From NCBI RefSeq assembly GCF_054482525.1, contig NZ_JBTHVG010000003.1: DNA of 64,000 bases. One strand, 5' to 3'. Made by a program: the position numbers and the translations under genes. The notes under the pieces were generated by a model. The model saw only the letters and a list, made by a program, of their open reading frames with translations. It ran no database searches and had not been told where the DNA came from. Below are positions 2,983 through 49,220 of the stretch, one piece after another (within the stretch, counting starts at the first letter, position 1; each line of letters begins with the position of its first letter). The DNA is from a plasmid.

Positions 2983-3267
2983 TTATTTAAGCTGGTCATC
3001 GTCTCTGGCCAGCATAGCCCAACCATTCGACTGGTTTTCGCGGGAGTAAGGATTCATTTCAAAATAACTATCTACCGCGTCGCTGTCCGCAACAGAACTG
3101 TTGTTAGCTCTCTTTGAACCCTGAACCACTACAGCATCAACCTCTGCGGCTTTCCCGTTGCGCTGTACCAGGATTTTAACCGTCTTGGGCTTACGTCTTG
3201 CGAGCAGTTTGTTGGCGATAAAAAGCACAACAATCCAGGCCAAAAGCACGTATAAAAATTTATTCAT
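2983..3267 (-). CDS. small membrane-anchored hypothetical protein
   Basis: ORF with N-terminal hydrophobic helix; palindromic motif copy ~165 bp upstream. Confidence 0.35.
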   Translation of the reverse strand: MNKFLYVLLAWIVVLFIANKLLARRKPKTVKILVQRNGKAAEVDAVVVQGSKRANNSSVADSDAVDSYFEMNPYSRENQSNGWAMLARDDDQLK

Positions 3268-3444: not shown

Positions 3445-3623
3445 GTAATAGTTAATTTCAGATCCTTCTTCCAGTTACGCTTCAGTATAAAACCGATACC
3501 CTCTAATTCAGCATCCTTCACGTTTAATACGCTTCACTTTAAGGCAGGGCTTTTCGGTTGATATGAATTCTTTTTCCGGTTGCTGGACATGGGTTTCATC
3601 CTGATAGTTAAAATTGCAGGCTA

Positions 3624-3926
3624 TCAGTCACCACCACCACCTCCTCCTCCTCCTCCTCCACCGCCACCATCACAACCACCAGCTATGCTATTTTCACCAT
3701 TACAATCACCTCCGAGGGGGTTCAAATGGCTGCTCCCCTGTAGATGGTGTCCTTGCCAGATCGAACCCGAACCAGCGCCTCCTGAGCGTCTTTGCTTGCC
3801 CTGAGGCAATTGTGCAGGCTCACCAGCACCGGCGGTCCCAAAAATGTCCCGGGCAATTTTATAAAGAAGGTAAAAAGGTACGCCCAGCATCATAAAAAAG
3901 ATTCCTGAAAATATTACACGTTCCAT
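3624..3926 (-). CDS. Gly-rich hypothetical protein with C-terminal poly-Gly tail
   Basis: ORF with hydrophobic N-terminus and terminal Gly run encoded by a (CCN)n tract. Confidence 0.3.
   Translation of the reverse strand: MERVIFSGIFFMMLGVPFYLLYKIARDIFGTAGAGEPAQLPQGKQRRSGGAGSGSIWQGHHLQGSSHLNPLGGDCNGENSIAGGCDGGGGGGGGGGGGGD
3628..3680. repeat. (CCN)n trinucleotide simple-sequence tract
   Basis: caccaccaccacctcctcctcctcctcctccaccgccacca read directly; codes poly-Gly on minus and poly-Pro on plus. Confidence 0.8.
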
Positions 3927-4358
3927 TGATGATCTCCTGTCTTGTGAGAGACCAGTTATATCAGGGTGATTCAGTATTTCCGTTTAGAAAAGAGTACTAA
4001 TTTGGCCCTGTTCGATCTTAATTTGCCATCCGGGAAAAAGTCATAGGGATAGGCCTGCCAGAGTCAATAACTTCCAGTGATCTGGAGGAGACCCCGGCTC
4101 TCTGAGCCCTCATGGATGGTACGGCTTTACCCCCTGTAAACAGATTCACGTTCCGCAGGACAAACATCGACTACTGACGTCTCATATTTGCTGACGCTAA
4201 TCCGACGTCTCATTGCCGTCTGCTTGTTTTCTTTAAAGGGTGTATTAGACGAATATCAAATCGGAATGGTAGGGGATGTGTGGGCACCATGCCCGGCCCT
4301 CTTTGAGCATCTGAGAGATTGGAGACCTAGCCGGGTAAGATAGCTACTTTCTTACGGG

Positions 4359-12199: not shown

Positions 12200-13538
12200 C
12201 ATAAGCGCTAACTTAAGGGTTGTGGTATTACGCCTGATATGATTTAACGTGCCGATGAATTACTCTCACGATAACTGGTCAGCAATTCTGGCCCATATTG
12301 GTAAGCCCGAAGAACTGGATACTTCGGCACGTAATGCCGGGGCTCTAACCCGCCGCCGCGAAATTCGTGATGCTGCAACTCTGCTACGTCTGGGGCTGGC
12401 TTACGGCCCCGGGGGGATGTCATTACGTGAAGTCACTGCATGGGCTCAGCTCCATGACGTTGCAACATTATCTGACGTGGCTCTCCTGAAGCGGCTGCGG
12501 AATGCCGCCGACTGGTTTGGCATACTTGCCGCACAAACACTTGCTGTACGCGCCGCAGTTACGGGTTGTACAAGCGGAAAGAGATTGCGTCTTGTCGATG
12601 GAACAGCAATCAGTGCGCCCGGGGGCGGCAGCGCTGAATGGCGACTACATATGGGATATGATCCTCATACCTGTCAGTTCACTGATTTTGAGCTAACCGA
12701 CAGCAGAGACGCTGAACGGCTGGACCGATTTGCGCAAACGGCAGACGAGATACGCATTGCTGACCGGGGATTCGGTTCGCGTCCCGAATGTATCCGCTCA
12801 CTTGCTTTTGGAGAAGCTGATTATATCGTCCGGGTTCACTGGCGAGGATTGCGCTGGTTAACTGCAGAAGGAATGCGCTTTGACATGATGGGTTTTCTGC
12901 GCGGGCTGGATTGCGGTAAGAACGGTGAAACCACTGTAATGATAGGCAATTCAGGTAATAAAAAAGCCGGAGCTCCCTTTCCGGCACGTCTCATTGCCGT
13001 ATCACTTCCTCCCGAAAAAGCATTAATCAGTAAAACCCGACTGCTCAGCGAGAATCGTCGAAAAGGACGAGTAGTTCAGGCGGAAACGCTGGAAGCAGCG
13101 GGCCATGTGCTATTGCTAACATCATTACCGGAAGATGAATATTCAGCAGAGCAAGTGGCTGATTGTTACCGTCTGCGATGGCAAATTGAACTGGCTTTTA
13201 AGCGGCTCAAAAGTTTGCTGCACCTGGATGCTTTGCGTGCAAAGGAACCTGAACTCGCGAAAGCGTGGATATTTGCTAATCTACTCGCCGCATTTTTAAT
13301 TGACGACATAATCCAGCCATCGCTGGATTTCCCCCCCAGAAGTGCCGGATCCGAAAAGAAGAACTAACTCGTTGTGGAGAATAACAAAAATGGTCATCTG
13401 GAGCTTACAGGTGGCCATTCGTGGGACAGTATCCCTGACAGCCTACAAAACGCAATTGAAGAACGCGAGGCATCGTCTTAACGAGGCACCGAGGCGTCGC
13501 ATTCTTCAGATGGTTCAACCCTTAAGTTAGCGCTTATG
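12200..13538 (+). mobile_element. IS186 (IS4 family), complete
   Basis: Transposase recognised from memory as IS186; terminal inverted repeats cataagcgctaacttaaggg / cccttaagttagcgcttatg; flanked by duplicated GC-rich gggggttgccccc target. Ends +/- a few bp. Confidence 0.85.
12249..13367 (+). CDS. IS186 transposase
   Basis: 372-aa ORF 'MNYSHDNWSAILAHIGKPEELD...' with IS4-family 'YRLRWQIELAFKRLK' motif. Confidence 0.85.
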   Translation: MPMNYSHDNWSAILAHIGKPEELDTSARNAGALTRRREIRDAATLLRLGLAYGPGGMSLREVTAWAQLHDVATLSDVALLKRLRNAADWFGILAAQTLAVRAAVTGCTSGKRLRLVDGTAISAPGGGSAEWRLHMGYDPHTCQFTDFELTDSRDAERLDRFAQTADEIRIADRGFGSRPECIRSLAFGEADYIVRVHWRGLRWLTAEGMRFDMMGFLRGLDCGKNGETTVMIGNSGNKKAGAPFPARLIAVSLPPEKALISKTRLLSENRRKGRVVQAETLEAAGHVLLLTSLPEDEYSAEQVADCYRLRWQIELAFKRLKSLLHLDALRAKEPELAKAWIFANLLAAFLIDDIIQPSLDFPPRSAGSEKKN

Positions 13539-44354: not shown

Positions 44355-46055
44355 ATCGGAGAACCACGGCAGCCTGGCGGCTGCAAATTGAAAACCGCCC
44401 CGGTTCGTCCTGTTGTTGCCGCACGCCCCGCAGAATATGTATGCTCTGAGGACCTGTTTTATTAAGGACTCATCCCCTTATGTTGACCCGCAAAAGTATC
44501 GATACAGTTCTGCTCTCTGTTGGTGCTGAGAAGCTCTCACAACGAGAATGGGACTGGATGAAAATGCTCAAACCCATGGACCCACCACCTGCGATGGTGA
44601 CGACCTCCATCCTGAAGCGCCGTGGCGATACAGCAGCCCTTACCCTGCTACAGGATACCGGGGTTTAATCCATCCTCATGTTGTCCGGTTTTACTCCCCG
44701 CCCTCTGAAACGTCTGTTCACAGCCAACCAGTGCTGGACGTCCTTCCTGGATGCGGGCGGTCTGCGCGATATCGAGGTTGAAGCCGTCACCAAAATGCTG
44801 GCCTGCGGCACACGGATACTGGGTGTAAAAGAGTTCGGGTGTGATAACCCGGACTGTCAGCACGTAAAGTACCTGACCAACTCATGCGGCAGCCGTGCCT
44901 GCCCGTCCTGCGGAAAGAAGGCCACAGACCTGTGGACAGCAACACAGCTGAATCGTCTTCCTGACTGCGACTGGGTACATCTGGTCTTCACCCTGCCGGA
45001 CACGCTGTGGCCGGTGTTCGAAAGCAACCGCTGGCTGCTGAATGACGTGTGCCGTCTGGCGGTGGAGAATCTGCTGTATGCCGCCCGAAAACGGGGGCTG
45101 GAACCCGGTATCTTCTGCGCCATCCACACGTATGGCCGTCGTCTCAACTGGCATCCGCATGTACATGTGTCTGTAACCTGTGGAGGTCTGAATAAGCATG
45201 GTCAGTGGAAAAAGCTGAGCTTCCTGAAAGACGCGATGCGTTCACGGTGGATGTGGAATATGCGGCAGCTGCTTCTGAAAGCGTGGTCAGAGGGGATGGC
45301 AATGCCGGAGTCGTTGTCACATATCACGACGGAATCACAGTGGAGAAGCCTGGTGCTGAAATCCGGCGGAAAATACTGGCATGTGTACATGTCGAAGAAG
45401 ACAGCCGGAGGGCGGAATACGGCACGCTACCTGGGTCGTTATCTGAAGAAGCCACCAATAGCGGCTTCCCGACTGGCTCATTACAACGGAGGGGCAAGCC
45501 TGAGCTTCCGTTACCTGGACCACAAAACGGGAGAAACGGCGACGGAAACGCTGACACAGCGTGAGCTGGTCGCGAGGCTGAAACAGCACATCCCGGAGAA
45601 GTTTTTTAAGATGGTGAGGTACTTCGGGTTCCTTGCCAACCGTGTGTGTGGAGAGAAGCTGCCGCAGGTGTACCGTGCACTGGGGATGGATAAACCGGAA
45701 CCAGTGGCGAAAGTGTGCTATGCACAAATGGTGAAACAGTTCCTGAGTCGTGACCCGTTCGAATGCGTGCTGTGTGGCTGCCGGATGGTATACCGCCGGG
45801 CCATTGCGGGGCTGAATGTATCAGGGCTGAAGAAAAACGCGCGGGATATCAGTCTACTGAGGTATATGCCGGCCTGACACAGGCTAAGTGTGCCCGGGAA
45901 TCGGTGAAAGTATAAAAAACAGCCTGTTACGGTATAAAAATCGACCATACAGAGAGGGAAACCACCGGAGTGGTGGGAAAAGCAGAAAGGCTCACGTGGC
46001 ATAAGGCGTGGACAATGGTATCGACTGGTTTTTCAATTTCCTATACGTCAAGCCT
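44355..46055 (+). mobile_element. IS91-family insertion sequence (IS1294-like); ends approximate
   Basis: Rolling-circle transposase gene plus small upstream ORF; no inverted repeats; right end near '...tttttcaatttcctatacgtcaag'. Interrupts the iteron field. Confidence 0.6.
44678..45877 (+). CDS. IS91-family rolling-circle (HUH/Y2) transposase
   Basis: N-terminal Zn-binding 'CQHVKYLTNSCGSRACPSCG', HUH-like 'WHPHVHV', C-terminal Tyr-containing region. Confidence 0.75.
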   Translation: MLSGFTPRPLKRLFTANQCWTSFLDAGGLRDIEVEAVTKMLACGTRILGVKEFGCDNPDCQHVKYLTNSCGSRACPSCGKKATDLWTATQLNRLPDCDWVHLVFTLPDTLWPVFESNRWLLNDVCRLAVENLLYAARKRGLEPGIFCAIHTYGRRLNWHPHVHVSVTCGGLNKHGQWKKLSFLKDAMRSRWMWNMRQLLLKAWSEGMAMPESLSHITTESQWRSLVLKSGGKYWHVYMSKKTAGGRNTARYLGRYLKKPPIAASRLAHYNGGASLSFRYLDHKTGETATETLTQRELVARLKQHIPEKFFKMVRYFGFLANRVCGEKLPQVYRALGMDKPEPVAKVCYAQMVKQFLSRDPFECVLCGCRMVYRRAIAGLNVSGLKKNARDISLLRYMPA

Positions 46056-46075: not shown

Positions 46076-46925
46076 CTGACAATGGTAGTGATTGGATGAT
46101 CTCACTACTGTTGTCACTCAGTTCTTTGAGCGGACCCTTCCCTCGGTTGGTCGGCATTAACAACGGTAGTGACTCGATTGGCTCACTGCCATTGTCATCG
46201 TGTAAATGACGTACCTTATCAGCTCAGCTGAAAGCAATGACAACGGTAGTGACTCTAATTGCTCACTGCCATTGTCGTCGTGTCTATTGAGAGCCTTATC
46301 AGTGCACCTGAAAAGCAATGACAACGGTAGTGATTCTAATGGCTCACTACCGTTGTCACCGTGTGTATTGAGAGGATGGTCCACTTAACTGGACGTATAT
46401 GACAATGGTAGTGACTTTAATAGCTCACTACCATTGTCGGTGTGTGAATTGAGAGGATGAGCAGCTCAGCTGTACGTCCATGACAATGGTAATGACTTAA
46501 TGAGCTCACTACCGTTGTCACCCTGTTAATTAAGAGGCTCATCTGCTCTTCTGGAAGGCTATGACAACGGAAGTGACTTGCTGGGCTCACTGCCATTGTC
46601 GCCGTATGAATTGAGAGGATCATCCGCTCTTCTGGATGGCAATGACAACGGTAATGACTTAATAGGCTCACTACCATTGTCACCCTGTGAATTGAGAGGA
46701 TGATCTGCTTAACCAGACGGCCATGACAACGGTAGTGACTTTCTGGGCTCAATACCGTTGTCACCCTGTGAGTTAAGAGGTTGACCCGCTCTACTGGACG
46801 GCCATGACAACGGTAGTCACTTTCTGGGCTCACTACCGTTGTCGCCATATAGAATGAGAGGAGCATCAGCTCAACTGAACGGCAATGACTACAGTAATGA
46901 GCTGGATGAAGCATAACCATTGACA
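46076..46925. repeat. tandem array of ~81-bp units, each containing a palindromic iteron pair
   Basis: Unit starts read at ~46076, 46157, 46236, 46318, 46399, 46480, 46561, 46642, 46723, 46804, 46885; unit core atgacaacggtagtgac-N-gctcactaccgttgtcac; degenerate copies continue to ~47320. Confidence 0.8.
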
Positions 46926-48548: not shown

Positions 48549-48719
48549 GATCATTGTGATGATCCATATCTGTGCATAAGTTCTACCTAAAAAAACGACT
48601 CCACTCATTAAAACTTGGCAAAAACTCTTTGCATACAATGACCTGCAACTCTTATCAACAACGGATCAGATCAAGTTAAAAAGATCTAATGAAAAGTCAC
48701 TACTATTGTCGCTCTGATC
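48549..48719. promoter_or_regulatory. repA promoter/origin-proximal region with six GATC sites and a palindrome
   Basis: GATC at 48549, 48561, 48664, 48669, 48683, 48716; palindrome ggatcattgtgatgatcc; DnaA-box-like ttatcaaca near 48652. Confidence 0.4.
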
Positions 48720-48800
48720 ACTACTGATGTCAAAAAACTCATTACCAACGTTATAATAATCACTACTAATGTCAAAATAATCACTACTGTTGTCACTGAT
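48696..48800. repeat. upstream iteron cluster 1 (five ~21-bp direct repeats)
   Basis: Repeats of cactacYRWTGTC at ~21-22 bp spacing, ~220 bp 5' of repA. Confidence 0.65.
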
Positions 48801-49108: not shown

Positions 49109-49220
49109 TAAGTCTAACCTCACTACCATTGTCACTTAAAATCATTACCAACGTCGAAATAGTCTCTACCATTGTCTTTTAAGTCACTCCCGTTGTCACT
49201 TATGTCGCTACTGTTGTCAG
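49109..49220. repeat. upstream iteron cluster 2 (five ~21-bp direct repeats)
   Basis: cactaccattgtcac-like repeats at ~21-bp period. Confidence 0.6.

What the first reader, a model, noticed from the sequence alone, without database searches (positions are those of the whole stretch)
3628..3680. Trinucleotide (CCN)n tract inside a small membrane-protein gene
The tract encodes a terminal run of 13 or more glycines. Being a multiple of three it cannot frameshift, but slipped-strand length changes would vary the Gly tail, and such repeats are recombination-prone.
Basis: seen in the sequence. Interest (0 to 1): 0.3.

Follow-up and report, generated by a model that had tools for sequence, protein, structure and literature searches.

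The report
Variable glycine tail, orphan plasmid gene
The flagged repeat is a real run of 13 glycine codons at the end of a small, uncharacterised and dispensable membrane-protein gene on IncHI2 resistance plasmids, and it gains or loses whole codons now and then between plasmids, which is ordinary coding-microsatellite behaviour and not a genetic switch.

Summary
Window 3630-3668 (minus strand) reads GGT GGC GGT (GGA)6 (GGT)4, then GAC TGA. That is 13 glycines, a terminal aspartate and a stop, ending a 100-aa ORF (3624-3926, minus). It is the only period-3 repeat in the window.

The window is IncHI2 plasmid backbone. The ORF has a Shine-Dalgarno site, a conserved extended -10-like element and a confidently predicted N-terminal helix. 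The rest of the protein is predicted disordered. It matches no known family.

Tract length does vary. Of 976 complete plasmids, 492 carry this 39-nt allele and 426 carry an interrupted 36-nt allele (G6-D-G5, as in R478). About 6% carry something else. Alleles read directly give 3, 9, 13, 14 and 15 glycines with nearly identical flanks, and almost all are in frame.

Change is infrequent and has no on/off effect. The gene is dispensable: Tn10 interrupts it in R478 itself.

Same-position genes in IncHI1 and a third IncH group all end in CGGGGD. A short Cys-oligoGly-Asp tail is therefore ancestral, and IncHI2 expanded it. Function and expression remain untested. Interest is low.

The parts
3624..3926 (-). 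ORF of 100 aa (MERVIFSGIFF...GGCDG13D), an orphan small membrane protein of the IncHI2 backbone
   Evidence: ORF list. RefSeq CDS WP_071447784.1 at the same coordinates in a plasmid 100% identical over the 1 kb compared. No Pfam, NCBIfam, PHROG or PADLOC family. Homologues found only in IncHI2 plasmids.
3630..3668 (-). The 13 Gly codons: GGT GGC GGT (3660-3668), (GGA)6 (3642-3659), (GGT)4 (3630-3641)
   Evidence: Sequence. TRF period-3 array 3629-3681. No (GGN)7GG match in 100 shuffles.
3624..3629 (-). Terminal Asp codon GAC and TGA stop. A Gly(n)-Asp-stop ending is kept in every in-frame full-length allele and in the IncHI1 and third-group counterparts.
3672..3704 (-). Segment from Cys75 (3702-3704) to Cys85 (3672-3674), CNGENSIAGGC, just before the Gly run. 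The Cys next to the Gly run is the family-conserved feature (..GGC(D)Gn D).
   Evidence: Translations and alignments.
3831..3923 (-). Codons for residues 2-32, the predicted N-terminal hydrophobic helix (membrane anchor)
   Evidence: AlphaFold2 helix 2-32. Mean pLDDT of 90, 93 and 87 for the first three 10-residue blocks, and below 55 afterwards.
3934..3938 (-). Shine-Dalgarno AGGAG, 7 nt upstream of the ATG
   Evidence: Sequence. An AGGAG precedes the ATG of the IncHI1 counterpart too; the third group has AGGAT at the aligned position.
3955..3963 (-). Extended -10-like element TGATATAAC, the one block conserved in an otherwise unalignable upstream region. Putative own promoter (inferred).
   Evidence: Alignment of the upstream regions of IncHI2, IncHI1 and the third group. 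The consensus scanner missed it because it requires T at hexamer position 6.
3780..3788 (.). Tn10/IS10 (ISVsa5) insertion site with 9-bp duplication TCCTGAGCG. Occupied in R478 and other plasmids, empty in this window.
   Evidence: The truncated fusion product P0013 was seen on 460 contigs.

Best explanation
The tract is a coding trinucleotide microsatellite. It forms the 3' end of a genuine but dispensable orphan gene of the IncH plasmid backbone.

The gene encodes a small protein with one N-terminal membrane helix. The rest is a disordered Gly/Ser-rich tail that ends in a Cys-oligoGly-Asp C-terminus. In IncHI1 and a third IncH group that terminus is a fixed CGGGGD. In IncHI2 the Gly stretch grew to G6-D-G5/6-D. 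In the lineage of this window the interrupting GGT GAC was lost and GGA units were added, which gave an uninterrupted run of 13 Gly.

The run consists of two short pure arrays, (GGA)6 and (GGT)4. Replication slippage occasionally adds or removes whole codons, giving alleles of 3 to 15 Gly. Substitutions at the GGA/GGT boundary shift units between the two arrays. The changes stay in frame and the gene tolerates them, so the Gly run most likely acts as a flexible spacer of loosely constrained length. It is not a phase-variation switch.

Shown: the anatomy, the allele series, the allele frequencies, the same-position genes in other IncH groups, and that the gene is disrupted in R478. Inferred: slippage as the mutational mechanism, membrane insertion, the promoter, the spacer role, and dispensability for transfer, which rests on R478's known transfer proficiency and was not tested here.
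For: - Identity of the window: IncHI2 plasmid. The 1-kb region is 100% identical to pMCR_W5-6, and the window is collinear with it at 99.96-100% over the 53 kb compared, apart from two extra IS elements. The region is found in 986 plasmids, 955 of them predicted conjugative.
- Allele series read directly from DNA:
  - (GGA)6(GGT)4 in the window.
  - (GGA)8(GGT)4 in L024.
  - (GGA)5(GGT)6 in L002 and L025, two unrelated isolates.
  - (GGA)4(GGT)7 in L027.
  - (GGA)2(GGT)4 in L010. Its protein, P0043, was seen on 30 contigs and in 60 index blocks.
  - GGT3 in L014.
  - Interrupted alleles: (GGA)2 GGT GAC GGA (GGT)4 in L004 and L005; a (GGA)1 version at the DNA level in L009, with the same 5G-D-5G protein encoded by L026; a (GGT)5 version in L011 and L012.
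- Flanking SNPs place the 3-, 9-, 13- and 14-Gly alleles that were included in the flank comparison on nearly the same haplotype.
- Frequencies: 492 of 976 records are at least 99% identical to the window allele and 426 of 976 to the R478 allele. In an even sample of 60 records, 32 had a 39-nt tract, 25 had 36 nt, one had 44 nt, one had 33 nt and one was partial.
- Evidence that the gene is real:
  - It has an SD site and an ATG.
  - A TGATATAAC block is conserved upstream.
  - An ORF is kept at the same position in three IncH groups, next to neighbours that are 52-61% identical.
  - The C-terminal GDAGGGCGGGGD is invariant across members only 62-96% identical.
  - hhalign between the two subfamilies gives 77.6% probability, E = 1.9e-5.
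  - pN/pS is about 0.26, with 10 of 15 differences at third codon positions.
- Evidence that the gene is dispensable: Tn10 interrupts it in R478, and about 30 of 975 complete plasmids lack an intact copy.
Against: - No read-level data, so ongoing slippage within a culture is not shown. The alleles could be few, old events inherited clonally.
- Most plasmids within each of the two lineages share one allele, so the tract is fairly stable.
- Some deposited tracts are clearly erroneous (L003 is scrambled; L008 has 44 nt). Hundreds of draft contigs break inside the tract. The tract is therefore hard to sequence, and a fraction of the rare variants may be artefacts.
- The third-position bias cannot distinguish this frame from the antisense poly-Pro frame, because the two share third positions.
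- No consensus promoter or terminator was found by the scanner.
- Expression, topology and function are untested.
Confidence: 0.8

Rival explanations
1. The length variation is mostly a sequencing or assembly artefact. The real tract would then be fixed within each lineage, and only the old 39-nt versus 36-nt difference would be genuine.
For: At least 650 draft contigs end inside the tract (P0035-P0044). Records L003 and L008 carry scrambled or out-of-frame tracts, and L028 has a 1-nt deletion elsewhere in the gene. Singleton substitutions (V, R, E, C) occur inside the run.
Against: The same non-modal alleles recur in independent assemblies. (GGA)5(GGT)6 is in a French hen E. coli plasmid and in S. 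Senftenberg ATCC 43845. The 9-Gly allele is on 30 contigs and in 60 index blocks from NCBI, ENA and Logan. The 3-Gly allele is on 3 contigs. The variants are overwhelmingly in frame, which random error would not produce.
Confidence: 0.1
2. The tract is an adaptive tuning or contingency repeat. On this view, Gly number is selected to adjust the reach or activity of the conserved C-terminal Cys..Asp module, and the pure run evolved for mutability.
For: The tail motif is conserved across IncH groups. The uninterrupted lineage shows the widest range, 3 to 15 Gly.
Against: Most plasmids within each lineage share one allele. The arrays are short, at 6 and 4 units. There is no on/off outcome. The gene is knocked out by Tn10 in R478, and a truncated product is seen on 460 contigs, without evident loss of the plasmid.
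Confidence: 0.06
3. The protein is a ribosomally made peptide precursor of the microcin B17 / linear azole peptide type. Its Gly-Cys-Gly motifs would be modified, with the Gly run as part of the core.
For: From my own knowledge, McbA also has a run of about 10 Gly next to Gly-Cys and Gly-Ser motifs and is plasmid-borne in enterobacteria. The IncHI1-type tails read GDAGCGAGGDAGGGCGGGGD.
Against: No cyclodehydratase, dehydrogenase or YcaO-like gene is nearby. The seven neighbouring ORFs tested have no Pfam family, and PGAP names none in the 50 kb I looked at. The N-terminus is a strongly hydrophobic helix, not a leader peptide. No immunity or export genes are adjacent.
Confidence: 0.03
4. The coding strand is the other one. 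The plus-strand ORF 3580-3804 (74 aa, 13 Pro) would be the real gene, or neither ORF is expressed.
For: That ORF is open, and it shares third codon positions with the minus-strand ORF, so the substitution pattern fits both.
Against: It starts with TTG and has no SD. In IncHI1 the antisense ORF overlaps only about 70 nt of the gene and is not collinear. The Gly-frame ORF, by contrast, is full length with an N-terminal hydrophobic segment and the CGGGGD end in all three IncH groups. PGAP annotates the minus-strand ORF.
Confidence: 0.03

Closest known systems
Coding trinucleotide microsatellites (homo-amino-acid runs that change by slipped-strand mispairing)
   Same: Tandem 3-nt units, allelic differences in whole units between near-identical sequences, and retention of the reading frame.
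   Different: The arrays here are short, at 6 and 4 pure units, and mostly stable. Nothing is known about phenotype.
Phase-variable simple-sequence contingency loci (for example in Neisseria, Haemophilus, Campylobacter; from my own knowledge)
   Same: A simple repeat inside or next to a gene for an envelope-associated protein.
   Different: Those use unit lengths that are not multiples of 3, or promoter spacers, to switch expression on and off. This tract only changes tail length.
Microcin B17 precursor McbA (from my own knowledge)
   Same: Plasmid-borne in enterobacteria, with a long Gly run next to Gly-Cys motifs.
   Different: McbA has a soluble leader and needs McbBCD. Here the N-terminus is a membrane helix, no modification genes are nearby, and no sequence similarity was detected.
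Unnamed same-position gene of IncHI1 plasmids (77 aa; 5328-5561 of L020 in p4695_blaTEM-1B) and its 84-91 aa relatives
   Same: Same position between homologous neighbours, N-terminal hydrophobic helix, disordered Gly/Ser middle, and a C-terminus of Cys-Gly(n)-Asp-stop.
   Different: BLASTP finds no alignment. Its Gly run is fixed at 4, and the tail grows by duplicating a roughly 8-residue GDAGxGC unit, not by triplet slippage. It is equally uncharacterised.
Hok-type small plasmid membrane toxins
   Same: Small, single-helix, plasmid-encoded proteins. A Hok gene lies elsewhere in the window.
   Different: Hok toxins are about 50 aa, have no long disordered tail, and are controlled by an antisense RNA. 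No such RNA or family match was found here.

Membership tests
Coding trinucleotide microsatellite varying by slippage | Tandem, near-perfect 3-nt units | tested here: met
   (GGA)6 and (GGT)4 within 13 GGN codons. TRF gives period 3, 17.7 copies.
Coding trinucleotide microsatellite varying by slippage | Alleles differ by whole units between close relatives with near-identical flanks | tested here: met
   GGA counts of 2, 4, 5, 6 and 8, and GGT counts of 4, 6 and 7. The 3-, 9-, 13- and 14-Gly alleles included in the flank comparison sit on one flanking haplotype.
Coding trinucleotide microsatellite varying by slippage | Length heterogeneity within one culture, or an elevated indel rate | not testable with these tools
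   No reads are available. The contig breaks in the tract are compatible with this but equally with sequencing drop-out.
Phase-variable contingency locus | Repeat changes switch the gene on and off by frameshift or promoter spacing | tested here: not met
   The unit is 3 nt and lies at the 3' end. The variants are in frame. The one out-of-frame tract (44 nt, L008) only replaces the last few residues.
Microcin B17-like / linear azole peptide precursor | Adjacent cyclodehydratase or dehydrogenase (McbBCD / YcaO) genes | tested here: not met
   The seven neighbouring ORFs tested have no Pfam family. No such product is annotated in the 50 kb viewed.
Microcin B17-like / linear azole peptide precursor | Soluble N-terminal leader followed by a Gly/Cys/Ser core | tested here: not met
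   The core-like composition is present, but the N-terminus is a hydrophobic helix of about 30 residues.
Bacterial lipoprotein | Lipobox with Cys at the end of the signal peptide | tested here: not met
   There is no Cys in residues 1-74 of the IncHI2 protein.
Type I toxin (Hok-like) | Match to a toxin family and a cis-antisense RNA | tested here: not met
   No NCBIfam or Pfam match. Rfam gives only a sub-threshold Mu-gpT-DE hit.
IncH small membrane protein with a Cys-oligoGly-Asp tail (unnamed, defined here) | Same position after the NERD-domain gene and two small minus-strand genes, with homologous neighbours | tested here: met
IncH small membrane protein with a Cys-oligoGly-Asp tail (unnamed, defined here) | N-terminal hydrophobic helix, Gly/Ser-rich middle, C-terminus ..GGC(D)G(n)D-stop | tested here: met
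IncH small membrane protein with a Cys-oligoGly-Asp tail (unnamed, defined here) | Detectable sequence homology between the IncHI2 and IncHI1 forms | tested here: inconclusive
   BLASTP finds nothing. hhalign gives 77.6% probability, E = 1.9e-5, on low-complexity sequence.

The most novel reading that the evidence does not exclude
The Cys-oligoGly-Asp C-terminus kept by all three IncH groups could be a functional module of an unrecognised family of plasmid membrane peptides. It might be a slippery tail that resists AAA+ protease degradation, a thiol or metal-binding end, or a modified peptide. In that case the IncHI2 expansion to a mutable 13-Gly run would tune its reach or stability.
Probability: 0.1. 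Interest if true: 0.5.

Novelty: new member of a known kind. Interest (0 to 1): 0.22.

Why it matters
It matters in two practical ways and one minor biological one.

- **Typing marker.** The tract is a small, cheap marker that separates IncHI2 lineages and sublineages. These plasmids are major carriers of mcr-1, mcr-9 and other resistance genes.
- **Assembly breaks.** The tract appears to be a systematic break point for short-read assemblies of these plasmids, which is useful for anyone closing them.
- **Unrecognised gene family.** The work shows that a small gene conserved across IncH plasmids is poorly annotated. It is missing or called in the wrong frame in many records. Its invariant CGGGGD end deserves a simple knockout or tagging experiment.

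None of this touches a long-standing open question.

Tried and rejected
- **Family searches.** Pfam, NCBIfam, PHROGs and PADLOC gave nothing for the protein. Pfam, PHROGs and PADLOC gave nothing useful for seven neighbouring ORFs.
- **Exhaustive protein searches.** These found only IncHI2 copies and one low-complexity hit.
- **Structured 5' leader.** Rfam gave only a sub-threshold Mu-gpT-DE hit over the SD and start codon (24.4 bits against a gathering score of 49). The region does not fold better than shuffles (z = +0.8). I reject a structured RNA there.
- **Promoter and terminator scan.** It found no signals for this gene. A conserved extended -10-like block appeared only when the three IncH groups were aligned.
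- **dN/dS as a strand test.** This failed because the antisense frame shares third codon positions.
- **Synteny in IncHI1B/pNDM-MAR-type plasmids.** One record is rearranged by IS903B. In another, no equivalent small ORF was seen.
- **Literature.** Searches by protein accession and by topic found nothing on this ORF. Two IncH papers, one with RNA-seq, give no information on this ORF in the passages searched.
- **Fold search.** I did not run one, because only the helix is confidently modelled.

Full report
**1. What is in the sequence**

On the plus strand, 3630-3668 reads (ACC)4(TCC)6 ACC GCC ACC. On the minus strand this is GGT GGC GGT (GGA)6 (GGT)4, followed by GAC and TGA. The tract therefore encodes 13 consecutive glycines, one terminal aspartate and a stop. 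It closes the 100-aa ORF 3624-3926.

Tandem Repeats Finder reports 3629-3681 with period 3 and 17.7 copies. It is the only period-3 array in the 64-kb window. The pattern (GGN)7GG occurs only here and never occurred in 100 dinucleotide-preserving shuffles. The only correction is that the run is followed by an Asp.

**2. Where the window comes from**

The 1-kb region around the tract is 100% identical to E. coli plasmid pMCR_W5-6. It occurs in 241 of 5,426 complete E. coli genomes, with 255 of 257 places on plasmids. It also occurs in 986 PLSDB plasmids from Escherichia, Salmonella, Enterobacter, Klebsiella and other genera. Of these, 955 are predicted conjugative, and every record inspected types as IncHI2A / MOBH / MPF_F.

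The window is collinear with pMCR_W5-6, at 99.96-100% identity over the 53 kb compared, apart from two extra IS elements. The ORF lies just past the end of the Tra1 operon (relaxase, TraD, S49 peptidase, NERD-domain protein). It is the third gene of a long block of small minus-strand hypothetical genes.

**3. Is the ORF a gene, and on which strand?**

RefSeq annotates it on the minus strand as WP_071447784.1, with variants WP_000442693.1 and WP_023205309.1.

Evidence that it is a gene on the minus strand:

- It has an ATG preceded by AGGAG at a 7-nt spacing.
- AlphaFold2, run on the single sequence, predicts a helix over residues 2-32 at pLDDT about 90. Everything after that is predicted disordered, with pLDDT below 55.
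- Between the R478-type sequence and the most divergent IncHI2 copy there are 15 differences in the first 240 nt. Ten of them are at third codon positions, and pN/pS is about 0.26.

The antisense ORF 3580-3804 (poly-Pro) shares the same third positions. The substitution test therefore cannot choose between strands.

What does decide the strand is comparison with other IncH plasmids.

- In IncHI1, the gene at the same position is a 77-aa ORF, also preceded by AGGAG: MLLNIALILYVAVCLYLCL...SGDAGGGCGGGGD*. Its neighbours are homologous to the window's neighbours, at 52% identity (E = 2e-19) and 61% identity (E = 1e-81).
- In a third IncH group (pP10159-4), the gene at that position is a 91-aa ORF ending GGDGGCGGGGDAGGGCGGGGD*.
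- The antisense ORF is not collinear in IncHI1.
- Upstream regions are otherwise unalignable between groups. They share one block, TGATATAAC in IncHI2 against TAATATAAA and TGATATAAA in the other two. It lies 16-26 nt before the SD in IncHI2 and IncHI1 and looks like an extended -10 element.

I take the gene as real and probably transcribed from its own promoter. Expression itself was not tested.

**4. An orphan protein with a conserved tail**

The protein matches no Pfam, NCBIfam, PHROG or PADLOC family. A word-indexed search of 5.8 billion proteins and an exhaustive phmmer search of 1.84 billion representatives returned only IncHI2 copies, apart from one low-complexity hit.

BLASTP finds no alignment between the IncHI2 and IncHI1 proteins. 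hhalign gives 77.6% probability (E = 1.9e-5), which is inflated by composition.

Within the IncHI1-like subfamily, members only 62-96% identical keep the last 12 residues, GDAGGGCGGGGD, invariant. The shared architecture is an N-terminal hydrophobic helix, a Gly/Ser-rich disordered middle, and a C-terminus of Cys, oligo-Gly and Asp. A short Gly run before a terminal Asp is therefore ancestral and apparently constrained. The long run is an IncHI2 elaboration.

**5. Does the tract length vary?**

Yes, in whole codons, but not often.

Alleles read directly from DNA:

| Lineage | Allele | Gly count | Where seen |
|---|---|---|---|
| Uninterrupted | (GGA)6(GGT)4 | 13 | window, modal |
| Uninterrupted | (GGA)8(GGT)4 | 15 | S. 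Newport plasmid (L024) |
| Uninterrupted | (GGA)5(GGT)6 | 14 | French hen E. coli (L002) and S. Senftenberg ATCC 43845 (L025) |
| Uninterrupted | (GGA)4(GGT)7 | 14 | E. fergusonii (L027) |
| Uninterrupted | (GGA)2(GGT)4 | 9 | L010; protein P0043 on 30 contigs and in 60 index blocks |
| Uninterrupted | GGT GGT GGT | 3 | L014; 3 contigs |
| Interrupted | (GGA)2 GGT GAC GGA (GGT)4 | 6-D-5 | R478, Enterobacter plasmids, modal |
| Interrupted | (GGA)1 version | 5-D-5 | L009 (DNA); L026 encodes the same protein |
| Interrupted | (GGT)5 version | 6-D-6 | divergent L011, L012 |

Flanking SNPs place the 3-, 9-, 13- and 14-Gly alleles that were included in the flank comparison on essentially one haplotype. 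Some steps, such as (GGA)5(GGT)6 to (GGA)4(GGT)7, need only an A-to-T change at the array boundary and no slippage.

Frequencies in PLSDB:

- Of 976 matching records, 492 are at least 99% identical to a 279-nt query carrying the window allele.
- 426 are at least 99% identical to the R478-type query.
- That leaves about 58 (6%) with other alleles, point differences or truncations.
- A flanks-only query sampled evenly down the ranking gave 32 records with a 39-nt tract, 25 with 36 nt, one with 44 nt, one with 33 nt and one partial.

The tract therefore behaves as a short, slowly mutating coding microsatellite. It is not a hypermutable switch.

**6. Caveats on data quality**

Three deposited records carry errors in or near the tract. 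L003 has a scrambled tract, L008 has a 44-nt tract, and L028 has a 1-nt deletion elsewhere in the gene.

More strikingly, at least 650 draft contigs end inside the first 0-8 Gly codons (partial proteins P0035 to P0044). Four such contigs that I read end at ...GGTGGCGGTGGAGGAGGA(GG). This could reflect poor read coverage through the (GGA)n(GGT)n stretch, or real heterogeneity among reads. I cannot tell which.

The recurrence of identical in-frame alleles in independent assemblies argues that the main variants are real.

**7. The gene is dispensable**

In the reference IncHI2 plasmid R478, Tn10/IS10 (ISVsa5) sits inside the ORF. It has a 9-bp duplication of window 3780-3788 (TCCTGAGCG), which resembles the Tn10 target consensus as I recall it. 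The same insertion is in pSJO-60984. Its truncated fusion product was seen on 460 contigs. About 30 of 975 complete plasmids lack an intact copy.

R478 is the classical transfer-proficient IncHI2 plasmid (established knowledge). The gene is therefore not needed for replication, maintenance or conjugation in the laboratory. An experimental-evolution paper on IncHI2 pJXP9 reports that hypothetical-protein regions and Tra1 can be deleted as compensatory changes (PMC9599605). The passages I searched say nothing about this ORF specifically.

**8. Mechanism and rivals**

Best explanation (confidence about 0.8): replication slippage, plus boundary substitutions, in two short pure codon arrays changes the length of a flexible Gly spacer. 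That spacer precedes a conserved terminal Asp in a small membrane-anchored, largely disordered and dispensable plasmid protein. The length is only loosely constrained.

Rivals:

- Variation is mostly artefact (0.1).
- The tract is an adaptive tuning repeat (0.06).
- The protein is a microcin B17-like modified-peptide precursor (0.03). No modification genes are nearby and the N-terminus is a membrane helix.
- The coding strand is the other one, or the region is non-coding (0.03).

From the positive-inside rule, the more basic flank lies after the helix (KIAR in IncHI2, RNKKALYR in IncHI1). This suggests the tail faces the cytoplasm, but that is inference only.

**9. Novelty and score**

A coding triplet repeat that varies by slippage is a well-known kind of feature. 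This is a new, previously undescribed instance in an uncharacterised plasmid gene.

The more interesting by-product is the IncH-wide small protein with an invariant CGGGGD end. It is unannotated or mis-annotated in many records.

Interest is low, at about 0.2. It would rise only if the tail proves to be a functional module.

Noticed in passing
window 3642-3668; loci L016-L019: At least 650 short-read draft contigs (SKESA and Logan assemblies) end inside the Gly tract, typically after GGTGGCGGTGGAGGAGGA(GG). The tract seems to break assemblies of IncHI2 plasmids systematically. The cause could be coverage drop-out or read-level length heterogeneity.
   Followed up: partly
window 3780-3788; L029 (R478), L007: Tn10/IS10 (ISVsa5) is inserted in this ORF in the reference plasmid R478 and in others, with a 9-bp duplication TCCTGAGCG. 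The truncated fusion product occurs on 460 contigs.
   Followed up: yes
L020 5328-5561 (minus); L030 2474-2749 (plus): Same-position genes in IncHI1 (77 aa) and a third IncH group (91 aa) all end in GGGCGGGGD. PGAP annotates a different frame in L030 (2643-2795) and nothing at all in many IncHI1 records. In this subfamily the tail grows by duplicating a GDAGxGC unit of about 8 residues (P0052, P0058).
   Followed up: partly
window 3924-3966 (minus): A sub-threshold Rfam hit to Mu-gpT-DE (24.4 bits against a gathering score of 49) overlaps the SD, the start codon and the conserved TGATATAAC block. The region folds no better than shuffles (z = +0.8), so this is probably a chance resemblance.
   Followed up: yes
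window 2983-3267 (minus): The next gene downstream also encodes a small protein with an N-terminal hydrophobic segment (94 aa). It has a 52%-identical counterpart in IncHI1. The two small membrane proteins may form a conserved pair.
   Followed up: partly
window 12201-13537 and 44361-46048: There are two insertions relative to pMCR_W5-6. One is an IS4-family (IS10-like) element next to the Hok/IS150 region. The other is an IS91-family element of about 1.69 kb.
   Followed up: partly
window 46153-46900; 48717-48795; 49161-49219: An array of about 9 copies of an 81-bp unit (also read as a 243-bp period) and two sets of 21-bp repeats flank the repHI2 initiator gene. They are presumably iteron or incompatibility repeats.
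   Followed up: no
window about 2564-37900 (minus strand): About 35 kb of almost exclusively minus-strand, mostly small hypothetical genes. Scattered among them are a DNA methyltransferase, an HNH endonuclease, a PAPS-reductase-family protein, Hok and a RelE/ParE toxin. The organisation resembles an establishment or anti-defence block, but its position relative to oriT was not worked out.
   Followed up: no
window 3904: The window's sublineage carries Gly8 (GGA) where all other copies have Val8, inside the predicted membrane helix. About 80 of 975 plasmid records share it. The exact 100-aa sequence was absent from the 15-billion-protein collection.
   Followed up: partly
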